From Escherichia coli (GTDB taxonomy: Bacteria > Pseudomonadota > Gammaproteobacteria > Enterobacterales > Enterobacteriaceae): a stretch of 64,000 nucleotides of DNA. Numbering within the stretch: position 1 is the first letter of the stretch; every line of letters starts with the position of its first letter. Location: the NCBI RefSeq assembly GCF_003018235.1, contig NZ_CP027437.1. One strand, written 5' to 3'. Positions 12,001 to 18,000 of the stretch are shown here, one piece after another. Position numbers: made by a program.

Positions 12001-15000
12001 GCCGAAGAAGGTCATCATTCTCGAAGGCATTTTGTTGCTGACGGATGCGCGTTTGCGTGACGAACTTAACTTCTCCATTTTCGTTGATACCCCGCTGGAT
12101 ATCTGCCTGATGCGCCGCATCAAGCGTGACGTTAACGAGCGTGGGCGTTCAATGGATTCCGTGATGGCGCAATATCAAAAAACCGTGCGCCCGATGTTCC
12201 TGCAATTCATTGAGCCTTCTAAACAATATGCGGACATTATCGTGCCGCGCGGCGGGAAAAACCGCATCGCGATCGATATATTGAAAGCGAAAATAAGTCA
12301 GTTCTTTGAATAAGCTTGATAAATTGTGTACCGTTCAGTGATAACCTGGTATGCCCTTGACGTAATTGGCGTTAAGGGAGTGATGCGCGAAAGGAGAAAA
12401 TGCCATGCGTCTGTGTGACCGAGATATTGAAGCCTGGCTTGATGAAGGCCGTTTGTCGATCAACCCACGTCCGCCAGTGGAGCGTATTAACGGCGCGACG
12501 GTGGATGTACGCCTGGGCAATAAATTTCGTACCTTCCGTGGTCACACGGCAGCGTTTATCGATCTGAGCGGTCCCAAAGATGAAGTGAGCGCCGCGCTTG
12601 ACCGCGTGATGAGCGATGAGATCGTTCTCGACGAGGGCGAGGCGTTCTATCTTCACCCAGGAGAGCTGGCGCTGGCGGTGACGCTGGAGTCGGTGACGCT
12701 GCCAGCCGATCTGGTGGGCTGGCTGGACGGGCGTTCCTCTTTGGCGCGTCTGGGGCTGATGGTGCACGTCACCGCGCACCGTATCGATCCGGGCTGGTCT
12801 GGTTGCATTGTGCTGGAGTTCTACAACTCCGGTAAGCTGCCGCTGGCGCTGCGTCCGGGCATGTTAATTGGTGCGCTGAGCTTTGAGCCGCTTTCCGGCC
12901 CGGCGGCGCGACCTTACAACCGCCGTGAAGATGCGAAATATCGCAACCAGCAGGGCGCGGTAGCCAGCCGAATCGATAAAGACTAATTCAGGCCCATTGA
13001 GGATACCATGAGACGATTTCTGACGACGCTGATGATACTCCTGGTCGTGCTGGTGGCCGGGTTATCTGCGTTAGTGTTGCTGGTGAATCCGAATGATTTC
13101 CGCGACTATATGGTCAAGCAAGTTGCTGCACGTAGCGGTTATCAATTGCAGCTCGACGGGCCACTGCGTTGGCACGTCTGGCCGCAGCTTAGTATCCTCT
13201 CCGGGCGAATGTCTCTCACCGCCCAGGGCGCAAGCCAGCCACTGGTTCGCGCCGACAACATGCGTCTGGACGTGGCGCTTTTACCACTACTGAGTCATCA
13301 ACTGAGCGTTAAGCAGGTGATGCTAAAAGGGGCAGTGATCCAACTGACGCCGCAGACGGAAGCGGTGCGCAGTGAAGACGCTCCGGTTGCACCGCGCGAC
13401 AATACCTTGCCGGATCTGTCAGACGATCGCGGATGGTCGTTTGATATATCCAGTCTTAAGGTGGCGGACAGCGTGCTGGTGTTCCAGCATGAAGATGACG
13501 AGCAGGTGACAATCCGCAATATTCGCCTGCAAATGGAACAAGATCCCCAACATCGTGGTTCATTTGAGTTCTCCGGGCGGGTTAATCGCGATCAGCGCGA
13601 TCTCACGATATCCCTTAACGGTACGGTAGATGCTTCTGATTATCCGCATGATTTAACGGCGGCTATTGAACAAATTAACTGGCAGTTGCAGGGTGCAGAT
13701 TTACCAAAACAAGGTATTCAGGGGCAGGGGAGTTTCCAGGCCCAGTGGCAGGAGTCACATAAACGCCTTTCATTTAACCAAATCAGCTTGACCGCCAATG
13801 ACAGCACGCTGAGCGGGCAAGCACAGGTCACGCTGACAGAGAAACCTGAATGGCAGCTGAGACTGCAATTCCCGCAACTGAATCTTGACAACCTCATCCC
13901 GCTTAATGAAACAGCGAATGGTGAAAACGGTGCCGCGCAGCAGGGGCAGAGCCAATCAACATTGCCGCGCCCGGTCATTTCTTCGCGTATTGATGAACCG
14001 GCATATCAGGGACTGCAAGGCTTTACGGCTGATATTTTGTTGCAGGCCAGTAACGTGCGCTGGCGCGGAATGAATTTTACAGATGTTGCCACGCAAATGA
14101 CCAACAAGTCGGGTTTGCTGGAAATTACTCAACTGCAGGGCAAGCTTAACGGTGGACAGGTTTCACTGCCGGGCACGCTGGACGCGACATCAATAAATCC
14201 GCGGATAAACTTCCAGCCACGGCTGGAAAACGTTGAGATTGGTACCATTCTGAAGGCGTTTAACTATCCGATTTCGTTGACCGGAAAAATGTCACTGGCT
14301 GGTGATTTCTCCGGTGCTGACATAGATGCCGACGCATTCCGCCACAACTGGCAAGGACAGGCACATGTCGAAATGACCGACACGCGCATGGAAGGGATGA
14401 ACTTCCAGCAGATGATTCAGCAAGCGGTAGAGCGTAATGGCGGTGATGTGAAGGCCGCTGAAAACTTTGATAACGTGACGCGGCTTGACCGCTTTACCAC
14501 CGATTTGACGTTGAAGGATGGCGTCGTGACGTTAAACGACATGCAAGGTCAATCGCCTGTGCTGGCGCTGACAGGGGAAGGCATGTTGAATCTGGCAGAT
14601 CAAACCTGCGATACCCAGTTTGATATTCGGGTCGTGGGTGGCTGGAACGGGGAAAGTAAACTGATTGATTTCCTGAAAGAAACGCCAGTACCGCTGCGGG
14701 TTTATGGCAACTGGCAGCAACTCAATTACAGCCTGCAAGTGGATCAGTTACTGCGCAAACATCTACAGGACGAAGCGAAACGTCGCCTGAATGACTGGGC
14801 CGAGCGGAATAAAGATTCCCGCAATGGCAAGGATGTGAAGAAGTTGCTGGAGAAGATGTAGGTTACCAGGTGACCAGTCCTGTAGGCCTGATAAGACGCG
14901 TAAAGCGTCGTATCAGGCGTTCGTGGCGGCATCATTATATTCTGAATATGTAAGATCGAAGGCTGTTCCGTTCACTTGATGTTCCTCGCTACTATGGAAC

Positions 15001-18000
15001 GCTCAAGCCGGTGAACGTGCCAGGGTGGCTCAATCGCCACCACCCTGGCAACCCGGGCTCCCGGCGGTAAATCGCCGCTGGCGCGGTTCCCTCATCTTAT
15101 TCCTTTCGGCTATTGGGTAAAATGGCCGATACCATCACACCTCGTACTCCATCTCGCCATCTTTACGCAGTGGAATAATCTGCACTTTCTGCACGCGATG
15201 GCTTTCCACCTGCAACGTTTTAAGCAAATAATCCCCCACCTGAACTTCTTCGCCAGGTTTTGGAATACGCTGTAAATATTCCATCAACAGCCCGGCAATG
15301 GTGTGATATTCACGTTTTTCATCCAGCGGCAGCGGCACATATTGCACCAGATCCTCCAGCGGCATATGACCATTCGCCGTCCAGGAACCGTCCGCATTCT
15401 TCTGAATATCATGGCGGGCGTCGATCTCTTCCACTTCGTTCGGTAAGTTACCGGCAATGGTTTCAGTGACGTCACTTAATGTCACAATCCCTTCCACCGA
15501 GCCAAACTCATCCACCACAAAAGCAAAGTGCGTGCGGGCATTACGGAACTGCTCCAGGGCAGGTAACAACGGCAAGGTTTCCGGGAACACCAGCGGCTGG
15601 CGAATCAACACCCGCAGGTTGAGCGGTTCGCCGCGCAGAGACTGTTGTAGCAGGTCGATAACGTGAACAACACCGAGCAAATCTTCTGCGTCATCACCGT
15701 CGGTAACCACCAGCCGCGTATGCTGATTTCGCTCCAGTAACTGGCGGATCTCGTCTTCCGGCGCGTTGAGATCGATATGCTCAATATCGTGGCGCGACGT
15801 CATAATGCTGCTGACGGTACGCTGGTTAAGATTAAGTACCCGCTCAATCATCCGCCGTTCCTGCGGATTAAAGATCTGCTGGTTACCATGATCCACCAGC
15901 ATGGACGCGGTTTCGGCGTCCAGTTCCGCATCTTCTTTTTGCCCGCTAAGCAGGCGCATTACCGCTTCGGTAGTCCGCTGGCGCAGCGTCTGGTTAGCGG
16001 AAAGAAAACGTCGCCGGTTAAAGATAGCCAACTGATTGAGCGCCTCGATCATCACCGAGAAACCAATGGCAGCGTACAGGTAGCCTTTCGGAATGACGAA
16101 GCCGAAACCTTCTGCCACCAGGCTAAAGCCAATCATCAACAGGAAGCTTAAGCAGAGAATAACGATCGTCGGGTGACTGTTAACAAATTGCGTTAACGGC
16201 TTGCTGGCCATCAACATCAGGCTGATAGCGATAACCACGGCGGCCATCATGACCAGTAAATGGTCGACCATCCCGACGGCGGTAATCACTGAGTCGAGTG
16301 AGAAGATGGCGTCCAGTACCACAATTTGTGTCACCACCCCCCAGAACTTCGCACCTTTGCGTTGTGTGGGATTATTGCTGTCTTTCCCTTCCAGCCGTTC
16401 GTTCAGCTCCATCGTGGCTTTGAACAACAGGAAGAAACCACCAAACAGCATGATTAAGTCGCGGGCGCTAAAGGTAAACGAGCGGAAGCTGAACAGCGGT
16501 TGAGTCAGGGTGACCAGCCAGGAGATTGACGCCAGCAGTAACAGGCGCATTAACATCGCCAGCAGCAGCCCGGTAACCCGTGCGCGGTCGCGCTGCTTCG
16601 GCGGTAGTTTTTCGGCGAGGATGGCAATAAAGACCAGGTTATCAATGCCGAGGACCAGTTCGATCACAATCAGCGTGATTAACCCGGCCCAGATAGACGG
16701 ATCGGCAATCCATTCCATAGTAAGTACAAAACCTATTCGTTGTATGACAAATGTCACAATTCGATCATGGATAAATCGGGGCAAAAATGCAATGTTGCAG
16801 CACTATTTATCTCATATTATTTGAGGGTAATAACCTCACATTATCCCTGAATTAAAAGTGGTAATAATAAAACATTATTTAAGAAATATCGCATGTGGAG
16901 ACACTATATTAAATATTGTCAACCTAAAGAAACTCCTAAAAACCATATTGAATGACACTTAATATAATTCTTAAAAATAGCCAATTGCCGAATTGTTACC
17001 TTGCCTGCTATTCCGTTAGCTGTAACACTTCCTCCTGCATTATTGGAGAGCCAATATTCAATTACCATAATGTCACCTTATATTCGGAAGTTAATTTCCG
17101 CAATAACCCTTTCTCATCAACGACTGGATGTTGAGAGAGTTTTAAAAATTAAGCTAAATCAGTGTATTGGTAGCTAAAAAGCCAGGGGCGGTAGCGTGTC
17201 TGGATGCCTGAAAGACCAGTCTGAATTATTCTGTCAATAGCCTGCGGATGAAATCAATTTTTTTAGGACTGATGCCAGTTAAATTTTTATTCAATTAACT
17301 GCAAGGTAAATGTGCATGGCGACATTGCTATTAATAGTGCACAGGATAATTACTCTGCCAAAGTGATAAATAAACAATGATGAAATCCAAAATGAAATTG
17401 ATGCCATTATTGGTGTCAGTAACCTTGATAAGCGGTTGCACAGTACTTCCGGGCAGCAATATGTCGACGATGGGCAAAGACGTCATCAAACAGCAGGACG
17501 CTGATTTCGATCTCGACAAAATGGTGAATGTTTATCCGCTGACCCCGCGCCTGATTGACCAATTACGCCCACGCCCGAATGTAGCGCGCCCCAATATGAC
17601 GCTGGAAAGCGAGATCGCGAATTACCAGTATCGCGTCGGGCCGGGGGACGTTCTTAATGTCACCGTCTGGGATCACCCGGAACTCACCACGCCAGCCGGT
17701 CAGTACCGCAGCTCCAGCGATACCGGCAACTGGGTACAGCCTGACGGCACTATGTTTTACCCGTATATCGGCAAGGTTCACGTAGTGGGGAAAACGCTCG
17801 CTGAAATCCGCAGTGATATTACCGGGCGCTTAGCGACGTACATCGCTGACCCGCAGGTGGACGTTAATATCGCCGCCTTCCGCTCACAAAAGGCCTATAT
17901 CTCCGGTCAGGTGAATAAATCCGGTCAACAGGCGATCACCAACGTGCCACTGACTATTCTCGACGCCATCAACGCCGCAGGTGGCCTGACCGACACCGCT

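What the first reader, a model, noticed from the sequence alone, without database searches (positions are those of the whole stretch)
14862..15134. Convergent asmA/yegH spacer carries a REP palindrome and a GC-rich inverted repeat
Two elements are present: gtaggcctgataagacgcg...cgtcgtatcaggc, and ccagggtggctcaatcgccaccaccctgg (15019..15047). Neither has a clear T-tract, so they may serve as RNA-stabilising or bidirectional pausing structures rather than canonical terminators.
Basis: seen in the sequence. Interest (0 to 1): 0.2.

Follow-up and report, generated by a model that had tools for sequence, protein, structure and literature searches.

The report
REP plus truncated structured repeat hairpin
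The gap between the converging E. coli genes asmA and yegH holds an ordinary REP palindrome and a broken copy of a larger structured repeat found across enteric bacteria; one surviving hairpin of that copy is where published mapping in strain K-12 places the RNA ends from both directions.

Summary
Both inverted repeats exist at the stated coordinates and exceed chance. The first (14883-14918) is a typical REP, with at least 40 similar places per E. coli genome.

The GC-rich repeat (arms 15018-15028 and 15040-15050) is not a free-standing element. It is helix "H3" of a roughly 265-nt structured repeat dispersed through Enterobacteriaceae. Across 106 copies, 97% of pair cells form standard pairs and 36 of 53 pairs show compensatory changes. 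Intact copies give only sub-threshold Rfam matches to TwoAYGGAY RNA (28-33 bits; cut-off 43).

The window copy (14959-15119, minus strand) is a deletion derivative. It has lost the two GGA-loop hairpins that define the core, like the K-12 allele. About a quarter of E. coli genomes keep the full copy at this site; others have a REP-only spacer or a toxin-antitoxin pair.

No U-tract terminator is present. Published Term-seq of MG1655 (98.5% identical spacer) lists 3' ends 4 and 5 nt beyond the two feet of this hairpin, one per strand. It also lists a Rho-dependent termination region about 90 nt further on the asmA-sense strand. No 3' end is listed at the REP.

Ordinary; low to moderate interest.

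The parts
13008..14861 (+). asmA coding sequence (context; left flank of the spacer)
   Evidence: ORF of 617 aa; annotated as asmA in matching E. coli records.
14883..14918 (.). REP palindrome (GTAG + GCCTGATAAGACGC / GCGTCGTATCAGGC)
   Evidence: Inverted repeat I1. Stable on both strands. Sub-threshold match to the REP-derived hairpin of Rfam naRNA4, 30.7 bits against a cut-off of 59.5. It is the only copy of this pattern in the 64-kb window.
14919..14958 (.). Linker between the REP and the repeat copy
   Evidence: In E. whittamii and a divergent Escherichia the stretch from REP to element matches as one contiguous inverted block (window spacer positions 20-225 and 22-258), although about 35-40 nt of the linker have diverged. 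Outside the family profile match.
14959..15119 (-). Truncated copy (3' ~60%) of a dispersed ~265-nt enterobacterial structured repeat (TwoAYGGAY-like family)
   Evidence: nhmmer with the family profile: window 15118-14959, minus strand, profile positions 117-277 of about 280, E 7.8e-39, the only hit in the window. Up to 90% identity over 154 nt to copies in two loci from the pattern scan, L029 (Lelliottia nimipressuralis) and L126. Aligned with copies at other loci.
14969..15017 (-). Helix H4 of the family (CGTTCAC ... GTGAACG around a variable loop region)
   Evidence: Helix 11 of the family structure: 6 of 7 pairs with changes on both sides, 97% of cells paired. Also predicted in the single-sequence folds.
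15018..15050 (-).
   Evidence: Inverted repeat I4. It corresponds to helices 9 and 10 of the family structure, where 8 of 10 pairs have changes on both sides. Flanked by published RNA 3' ends on both strands.
15067..15086 (-). Orphaned 3' strand of the family's closing stem P1 (15067-15074) and small hairpin CCGC-GCCA-GCGG (15075-15086)
   Evidence: Correspond to helices 1 and 8 of the family structure. The 5' partner of P1 is missing from the window allele.
15112..15119 (.). Deletion junction ATTGGGTA
   Evidence: The full-length allele (strain YDMW_2, L002) has 175 extra nt here, bounded by ATCGGGTA and ATTGGGTA. Those 175 nt carry the two GGA-loop hairpins of the family, and the family consensus runs uninterrupted across the junction.
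15054..15054 (+). Published RNA 3' end, asmA sense (MG1655 2139566, minus strand)
   Evidence: PMC7815308 supplementary file 1: score 42363 and 31838 in two of three conditions, classed 'orphan'. Coordinates converted through L132. It lies 4 nt after the stem.
15013..15013 (-). Published RNA 3' end, yegH sense (MG1655 2139607, plus strand)
   Evidence: PMC7815308 supplementary file 1: scores 2740, 2875 and 4207 in three conditions. It lies 5 nt after the stem on the minus strand.
15144..15144 (+). Peak of a published Rho termination region, asmA sense (MG1655 2139476, minus strand), 10 nt inside the 3' end of yegH (antisense)
   Evidence: PMC7815308 supplementary file 2: Rho score 7.69, significance 1.1e-18. 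The C:G ratio is about 2.2 over window 15085-15214 on this strand.
15135..16718 (-). yegH coding sequence (context; right flank of the spacer)
   Evidence: Stop codon at 15135-15137. Annotated as yegH, TerC family, 1584 nt in K-12.

Best explanation
The spacer is a patchwork of two repeat types. Next to the asmA stop codon sits a standard REP palindrome. After it comes an internally deleted copy of a roughly 265-nt structured repeat that occurs several times per genome in Escherichia, Klebsiella, Citrobacter, Enterobacter and relatives.

An intact copy, read on the yegH-sense strand, has four parts in order: a long closing stem; two hairpins with GGA-containing loops (CAUGGAUG and CAGGGAYG); a small hairpin; and then helices H3 and H4. 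In the window, as in K-12, a 175-nt deletion between the short direct repeats ATCGGGTA and ATTGGGTA removed the closing stem's 5' strand and both GGA hairpins.

Shown: the repeat identity, the covariation, the deletion, and the positions of RNA 3' ends in MG1655.

Inferred: the surviving H3 stem-loop acts as a two-way 3'-end-protecting structure. Transcription from asmA, and more weakly from yegH, runs through the hairpin. On the asmA-sense strand it is stopped by Rho further downstream. Exonucleases then trim back to the foot of the stem, leaving stable ends 4-5 nt beyond it. The REP is read through and shows no detected 3' end.
For: Repeat identity:
- Profile match E 7.8e-39, covering only profile positions 117-277.
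- BLAST matches of up to 90% identity to copies in other genera.
- Alignments of copies at other loci: proX, dusC/yohP, aqpZ/lysO, and Klebsiella and Citrobacter loci.
- At least 120 loci found by a pattern scan of genome contigs.

Structure:
- 97.3% of pair cells form standard pairs, against about 40% when the partners are slid.
- 36 of 53 pairs have changes on both sides, and no shuffle out of 500 reaches any observed measure.
- In H3, 8 of 10 pairs are compensatory.

Strand: 67 G-U cells against 12 A-C cells on the GGA-loop strand.

Deletion: the alignment with the full-length allele at the same locus, and the family consensus running across the junction.

Function:
- No T-tract terminator.
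- MG1655 Term-seq 3' ends at window-equivalent 15054(+) and 15013(-), and a Rho region at 15144(+).
- C-rich, G-poor sequence downstream of the hairpin.
- The general rule that Rho-dependent transcripts end just after stable stem-loops that lack U tracts (PMC6061677).
Against: - The RNA data are from MG1655, not the window's strain. The spacer differs at 4 of 273 positions, one of them in the hairpin loop.
- Exonuclease trimming was not tested for this site.
- No Rho region is reported on the yegH-sense strand.
- The asmA-sense end is strong for a weakly expressed gene, so a separate short transcript cannot be excluded.
- The two intact K-12 copies show no Term-seq ends, so end formation at H3 is not shown to be a general property of the family.
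- The z-score of the isolated hairpin is modest.
Confidence: 0.7

Rival explanations
1. The GC-rich hairpin is a non-canonical bidirectional intrinsic terminator. RNA polymerase stops at the stem on both strands without help from a U tract or from Rho.
For: 3' ends lie 4-5 nt after the stem on both strands. The stem is stable and perfect, 11 bp. The genes converge, a setting where bidirectional terminators are common (my own knowledge).
Against: There is no U or A tract on either side. A strong Rho-dependent read-through signal lies about 90 nt downstream on the asmA-sense strand, so polymerase does pass the hairpin. The general rule for U-less stem-loops is protection, not termination.
Confidence: 0.12
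2. The paired 3' ends come from processing of a sense-antisense duplex. The converging asmA and yegH transcripts overlap, and RNase III or another nuclease cuts at the edges of the overlap.
For: The two mapped ends define a 42-nt overlap, 15013-15054, which is exactly the hairpin. asmA-sense transcription continues antisense into yegH.
Against: The ends sit symmetrically at the feet of an intramolecular stem, which exonuclease blockage explains more simply. The two ends differ about tenfold in abundance. Nothing here tests for RNase III.
Confidence: 0.08
3. The remnant has no role at all. The spacer is decaying repeat DNA, and the mapped ends are an incidental by-product that makes no difference to asmA or yegH expression.
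For: About 20-25% of E. coli genomes lack the hairpin at this site entirely, having the short REP-only allele or the O157 toxin-antitoxin allele. The copy has lost the family's conserved core. The locus shows repeated deletions and inversions.
Against: This does not contradict the physical effect on RNA ends seen in MG1655. It questions only selective value, which no tool here can measure.
Confidence: 0.1

Closest known systems
REP / BIME elements of E. coli
   Same: 14883-14918 is an extragenic imperfect palindrome of about 35 nt with the GCCTGAT...ATCAGGC arms. It is repeated at least 40 times per genome. The same palindrome occurs in the K-12 proX-ygaY spacer.
   Different: It is a single REP, not a multi-REP BIME. 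No RNA 3' end was detected at it in MG1655, so the classical mRNA-stabilising role is not evident here.
TwoAYGGAY RNA motif (Rfam RF01731; Weinberg et al. 2010, PMC2864571)
   Same: Intact copies of the family have a long closing stem around two adjacent hairpins with GGA-containing loops (CAUGGAUG and CAGGGAYG). Five intact copies give cmscan matches on that strand at 28-33 bits. The function of TwoAYGGAY is unknown; CsrA binding has been proposed (PMC4333381).
   Different: The scores are below the gathering cut-off of 43. The second loop position is often G rather than a pyrimidine. The enterobacterial family has an extra 3' domain (H3, H4). The window copy has lost both GGA hairpins, so it is not a TwoAYGGAY RNA in any sense.
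[quoted passage not shown]
   Same: A stable stem-loop with no U-rich tail, steady-state 3' ends a few nt after the stem, and a Rho-dependent region with C-rich sequence just downstream.
   Different: Here one hairpin serves both strands of a converging gene pair, and it derives from a repeat remnant. Exonuclease dependence is untested.
RSA (also called BEE95) dispersed enterobacterial intergenic repeats (Bachellier and Hofnung 1996, cited in PMC3751351)
   Same: A dispersed intergenic repeat of enterobacteria with few copies per genome. From memory, RSA is about 152 bp, similar to the stem-enclosed 5' domain of this family.
   Different: No RSA sequence could be obtained, so identity is only a lead. 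If RSA is the 5' domain, the window retains mostly what lies outside it.
ERIC/IRU and other structured intergenic repeats (MITE-like)
   Same: Multi-copy, intergenic, avoids promoter regions, varies in presence and orientation between strains, and keeps its secondary structure through compensatory change.
   Different: No terminal inverted repeats or target-site duplications were seen at the ends compared. The sequence is unrelated to ERIC (from memory).

Membership tests
REP (repetitive extragenic palindrome) | Imperfect palindrome of about 35 nt with conserved GC-rich arms, able to form a stable hairpin | tested here: met
   14-nt arms, 93% complementary; -23.4 and -21.7 kcal/mol, z -5.2 and -7.0.
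REP (repetitive extragenic palindrome) | Extragenic and highly repeated in the genome | tested here: met
   It lies 21 nt after the asmA stop codon.
REP (repetitive extragenic palindrome) | Match to a curated REP-derived RNA model (Rfam naRNA4) | tested here: inconclusive
   30.7 bits against a cut-off of 59.5. Only the single REP hairpin of the model is matched.
Dispersed ~265-nt enterobacterial structured repeat (defined here) | Significant match to the family profile | tested here: met
   nhmmer E 7.8e-39, window 15118-14959, minus strand; BLAST matches to dozens of copies.
Dispersed ~265-nt enterobacterial structured repeat (defined here) | Complete architecture: closing stem P1, two GGA-loop hairpins, H3 and H4 | tested here: not met
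   Only profile positions 117-277 are present. The 175 nt carrying the 5' strand of P1, H1 and H2 are deleted relative to the full allele.
TwoAYGGAY RNA (RF01731) | Two hairpins with AYGGAY terminal loops inside a closing stem | tested here: not met
   Absent from the window copy. Intact copies elsewhere have ANGGAY loops.
TwoAYGGAY RNA (RF01731) | Score at or above Rfam's gathering cut-off (43 bits) | tested here: not met
   No hit in the window. Intact copies elsewhere score 28.2-33.4 bits.
Intrinsic (Rho-independent) terminator | GC-rich stem-loop followed directly by a U tract | tested here: not met
   No terminator-like site was called in the spacer. The tails are AACCCGGG on the plus strand and CGUUCACC on the minus strand.
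Protective stem-loop of Rho-dependent transcripts (Dar and Sorek class) | Steady-state 3' end immediately after a stable stem-loop that lacks a U-rich tail | tested here: met
   MG1655 3' ends lie 4 and 5 nt after the stem on the two strands. This comes from published data on a 98.5% identical allele, not from this strain.
Protective stem-loop of Rho-dependent transcripts (Dar and Sorek class) | Rho dependence of termination downstream of the stem-loop | tested here: inconclusive
   asmA sense: a Rho region about 90 nt downstream, score 7.69, p 1e-18. yegH sense: no region listed.
Protective stem-loop of Rho-dependent transcripts (Dar and Sorek class) | The stem protects the RNA from PNPase and RNase II | not testable with these tools
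   Needs exonuclease mutants or half-life measurements.
RSA / BEE95 repeats | Sequence identity to the published RSA consensus | not testable with these tools
   Only the citation was found. No paper in the library prints the sequence.

The most novel reading that the evidence does not exclude
The hairpin is a fragment of a structured RNA family that Rfam 15 does not catch at its curated thresholds and that RefSeq does not annotate. The family is about 265 nt, has 36 covarying pairs, carries two (in some copies three) GGA-loop hairpins, and has several copies per genome across Enterobacteriaceae, including two intact copies in E. coli K-12 (lysO/aqpZ and yohP/dusC). It would be an enterobacterial branch of the orphan TwoAYGGAY motif. 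It may be a protein-binding RNA (for example CsrA-binding) carried in 3' untranslated regions, or a structured mobile element that swaps places with REPs. The asmA-yegH remnant would then show one module, H3, working alone as a 3'-end-forming hairpin.
Probability: 0.3. Interest if true: 0.55.

Novelty: new member of a known kind. Interest (0 to 1): 0.3.

Why it matters
For the finding itself, little. It explains where asmA and yegH transcripts end without a canonical terminator, and it shows a decayed repeat supplying that hairpin.

It also corrects the picture of an isolated palindrome. Three points follow:
- Many odd GC-rich hairpins in enterobacterial spacers may be fragments of larger repeats.
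- This spacer is a useful polymorphic marker, with at least five alleles in E. coli.
- The parent family deserves attention. It has strong covariation, GGA loops and intact K-12 copies, yet it gets no Rfam hit at the gathering cut-off. It offers an experimentally tractable way into the function of TwoAYGGAY-type RNAs.

Tried and rejected
- Rfam on the window spacer and on 26 loci gave nothing at gathering thresholds except unrelated prophage RNAs in L014. The only consistent weak hits were naRNA4 (the REP) and TwoAYGGAY.
- The phage collection gave no match. The plasmid hits are mostly chromosomes or chromosome pieces filed as plasmids, so there is no evidence that phages or plasmids carry the element.
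- Promoter and terminator scans of the window spacer and of three spacers with intact copies found no sigma-70-like promoter or intrinsic terminator in any of the four spacers; the window scan's two calls lie in the flanking genes. By eye there is a weakly conserved AGCAAT-17-TAAAnn arrangement upstream of many copies, but I do not claim a promoter.
- Literature searches for RSA, BEE95, the locus names and sequence strings returned only one citation.
- The Dar and Sorek supplement is not held and the Thomason transcription-start paper is not held, so there is no second 3'-end dataset and no 5'-end data.
- A chance palindrome is rejected.
- I considered a simple REP-to-REP inversion as the origin of the window allele from the E. 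whittamii-type allele. It does not fit, because the window allele has no second REP next to yegH.
- No covariance model was built. The profile and BLAST evidence already sufficed.
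Full report
**Observation.** The window is E. 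coli. It matches strains WCHEC020031 and ECO2 at 100% and K-12 at 97.8% over 14700-15300. asmA (13008-14861, plus strand) and yegH (stop codon at 15135, minus strand) converge on a 273-nt spacer, 14862-15134. Both reported inverted repeats are present.
- The first has 14-nt arms at 14886-14899 and 14905-14918, 93% complementary. It folds at -23.4 and -21.7 kcal/mol on the two strands, z -5.2 and -7.0.
- The second has perfect 11-nt arms at 15018-15028 and 15040-15050 with an 11-nt loop. None of 2000 dinucleotide shuffles of the spacer reaches an 11-bp perfect repeat. As an isolated 51-mer its z-score is only -2.1 to -2.8 because the context is GC-rich.
- No stem followed by a T run is called in the spacer.

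**The first element is a REP.** It matches the REP-derived hairpin of Rfam naRNA4 below threshold. The same palindrome appears in the K-12 proX-ygaY spacer.

**The second element is part of a larger repeat.**
- Strain YDMW_2 carries a 448-nt spacer at this locus. Searching E. coli genomes and plasmid records with that spacer showed that the stretch starting just before the hairpin matches other loci at 72-84% identity. These loci are downstream of proX, between dusC and yohP, between aqpZ and lysO, and in Klebsiella (12 places in one chromosome) and Citrobacter.
The genera include Citrobacter, Enterobacter, Lelliottia, Silvania, Pseudocitrobacter, Atlantibacter, Trabulsiella, and E. coli, E. 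albertii and E. whittamii, with several copies per genome.
- A profile built from 97 copies hits the window once, at 15118-14959 on the minus strand, covering profile positions 117-277 of about 280, E 7.8e-39.
- It also finds intact copies in K-12 between lysO and aqpZ and between yohP and dusC. It finds nothing in the short allele or the O157 allele of the asmA-yegH spacer.
- E. coli genomes have a median of 3 places, range 1-10.

**Structure and strand.**
- On the 106-copy alignment, a consensus structure of 53 pairs has 97.3% of cells paired, against 37-44% when partners are slid by 1-3 columns.
- Of the 53 pairs, 36 have changes on both sides, and no shuffle out of 500 reaches any observed measure.
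Examples are GCCAGGGUGG/CCACCCUGGC, GCAGGGGGAGG/CCUCCCCCUGC and GUAAAGGGCG/CGCCCUUUAC.
- G-U cells outnumber A-C cells 67 to 12 on one strand. That points to selection on RNA from that strand, which is the yegH-sense (minus) strand in the window.
- On that strand the element has, in order: a long closing stem P1; hairpin H1 (loop CAUGGAUG or CAGGGAUG); hairpin H2 (loop CAGGGAYG); a small hairpin; the 3' strand of P1; H3; and H4.

**Relation to known families.**
- Intact copies give repeated cmscan matches, always on that strand, to TwoAYGGAY RNA (RF01731) at 28.2-33.4 bits. This is below the cut-off of 43.
- TwoAYGGAY is an orphan motif reported from gut metagenomes, Clostridia and some gamma-proteobacteria. 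It has two AYGGAY loops and an often very long P1. CsrA binding has been proposed for it.
- The enterobacterial family resembles it in design but fails the formal score test and adds a 3' domain.
- It may be the repeat once named RSA or BEE95 (citation found). I could not obtain that sequence.

**What happened at this locus.**
- The family consensus runs uninterrupted across the point where the window and K-12 alleles lack 175 nt relative to YDMW_2. The gap is bounded by ATCGGGTA and ATTGGGTA. The window allele is therefore a deletion derivative that lost the 5' strand of P1, H1 and H2.
- Strain B27 has a different internal deletion.
- E. whittamii and a divergent Escherichia have this arrangement: asmA, REP, a full element in the opposite orientation, an inverted REP, then yegH.
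- The 67-nt short allele equals the left REP joined to the right REP's flank at ATCAGGC, so it is a deletion of everything between them.
- O157:H7 instead has a frameshifted RelE/ParE toxin gene and an HTH gene, with no REP and no element.
- Roughly 26% of 5426 genomes keep at least 80% of the full 448-nt spacer. About half have the K-12-like or B27-like deletions. The rest have other alleles.

**What the hairpin does here.**
- Published Term-seq of MG1655 (Adams et al. 2021, PMC7815308, supplementary file 1) lists a 3' end at 2139566 on the minus strand, with scores 42363 and 31838 in two of three conditions. It lists another at 2139607 on the plus strand, with scores 2740, 2875 and 4207.
- Converted through L132, these are window 15054 (plus strand, asmA sense) and 15013 (minus strand, yegH sense). 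They lie 4 and 5 nt beyond the two feet of the stem.
- Supplementary file 2 lists a Rho termination region peaking at 2139476 on the minus strand (window 15144), with Rho score 7.69 and p 1.1e-18.
- Downstream of the hairpin the asmA-sense strand is C-rich and G-poor, C:G about 2.2.
- No 3' end is listed at the REP. None is listed in the two intact K-12 copies either.
- This matches the class described by Dar and Sorek. In that class, Rho-dependent transcripts end precisely after stable stem-loops without U tracts, and the stem-loops shield them from 3' exonucleases.
- I therefore infer, but have not shown, that H3 acts as a two-way protective 3' stem-loop.

**Rivals.**
- Hairpin-only bidirectional termination is disfavoured by the Rho read-through signal beyond the stem.
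- RNase III processing of the overlap between the converging transcripts is untested.
- The remnant may be selectively irrelevant. This fits its absence from about a fifth of strains, but it does not conflict with the physical effect on RNA ends.

**Verdict.** The feature is ordinary, a REP plus a repeat remnant serving as a Rho-type 3' stem-loop, so interest is low to moderate. The parent family is the more interesting object.

Noticed in passing
L133 2516-2790 (+) = NC_000913.3 about 915015-915289; L134 3120-3380 (-) = about 2229119-2229379: E. coli K-12 has two intact copies of the ~265-nt structured repeat, in the lysO-aqpZ and yohP-dusC spacers. Neither spacer carries any annotated feature in the reference record.
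   Followed up: partly
L134 2900-3600 compared with L007 1200-1930: At the dusC-yohP spacer the element is inverted between K-12 and O157:H7 and is only 88.6% identical, while the flanks are 98-100% identical. The rest of the spacer is unrelated. This suggests independent insertions or replacement at one site.
   Followed up: partly
L135 3125-3317 compared with L006 1300-1800: Downstream of proX, K-12 has a two-REP BIME where strain CB7286 has a full copy of the element. The two repeat types occupy the same intergenic site alternatively.
   Followed up: partly
L081 8604-8690; also L012, L084, L129, L130: Some copies carry a nested module of about 77 nt after ...GAGG. It adds further hairpins, including GGCCCAGGGAUGGGCC, which is a third GGA-loop hairpin.
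   Followed up: no
L004 715-1310 (O157:H7 asmA-yegH spacer): O157:H7 strains carry a frameshifted RelE/ParE-family toxin gene and an HTH gene in this spacer in place of the REP and the repeat. A terminator-like hairpin followed by a T-rich tail sits just after asmA.
   Followed up: no
L081 8358-8892 and L049 8665-9122: E. whittamii and a divergent Escherichia have the full element in the opposite orientation, flanked by two inverted REPs. The 67-nt short E. coli allele (L003) looks like a REP-to-REP deletion of that arrangement.
   Followed up: yes
5' flanks of many family copies (for example L015, L018, L033, L036, L043): About 55-100 nt upstream of the closing stem, many copies share a CCAGTAATTTTT-type T run (terminator-like in L018) and an AGCAAT box about 17 nt before an A/T-rich hexamer. 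This could be a weak promoter, but the consensus scan called none in E. coli copies.
   Followed up: partly
Flanks of copies in the first alignment; L006 around 1400-1440: A G-rich motif, GGGAGAGGGTTGGGGTGAGGGG, recurs beside many copies. From memory it resembles the Box C repeat; I did not check this.
   Followed up: no
About 100 loci, L006-L131: A crude orientation census used open frames of at least 150 codons within 600 nt. The gene on the 5' side of the element's RNA strand is co-directional in 52 cases and opposite in 24. The 3' neighbour converges in 56 cases and is co-directional in 30. Divergent-promoter settings are rare, 6 cases. The counts are not independent, because orthologous loci are counted repeatedly.
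   Followed up: partly
L014 750-949: A C4 antisense RNA (55.3 bits, above the cut-off) with isrK-like and c4-a1b1 matches lies about 100 nt from one Enterobacter copy of the repeat. This probably marks a P1/P7-like prophage edge.
   Followed up: no
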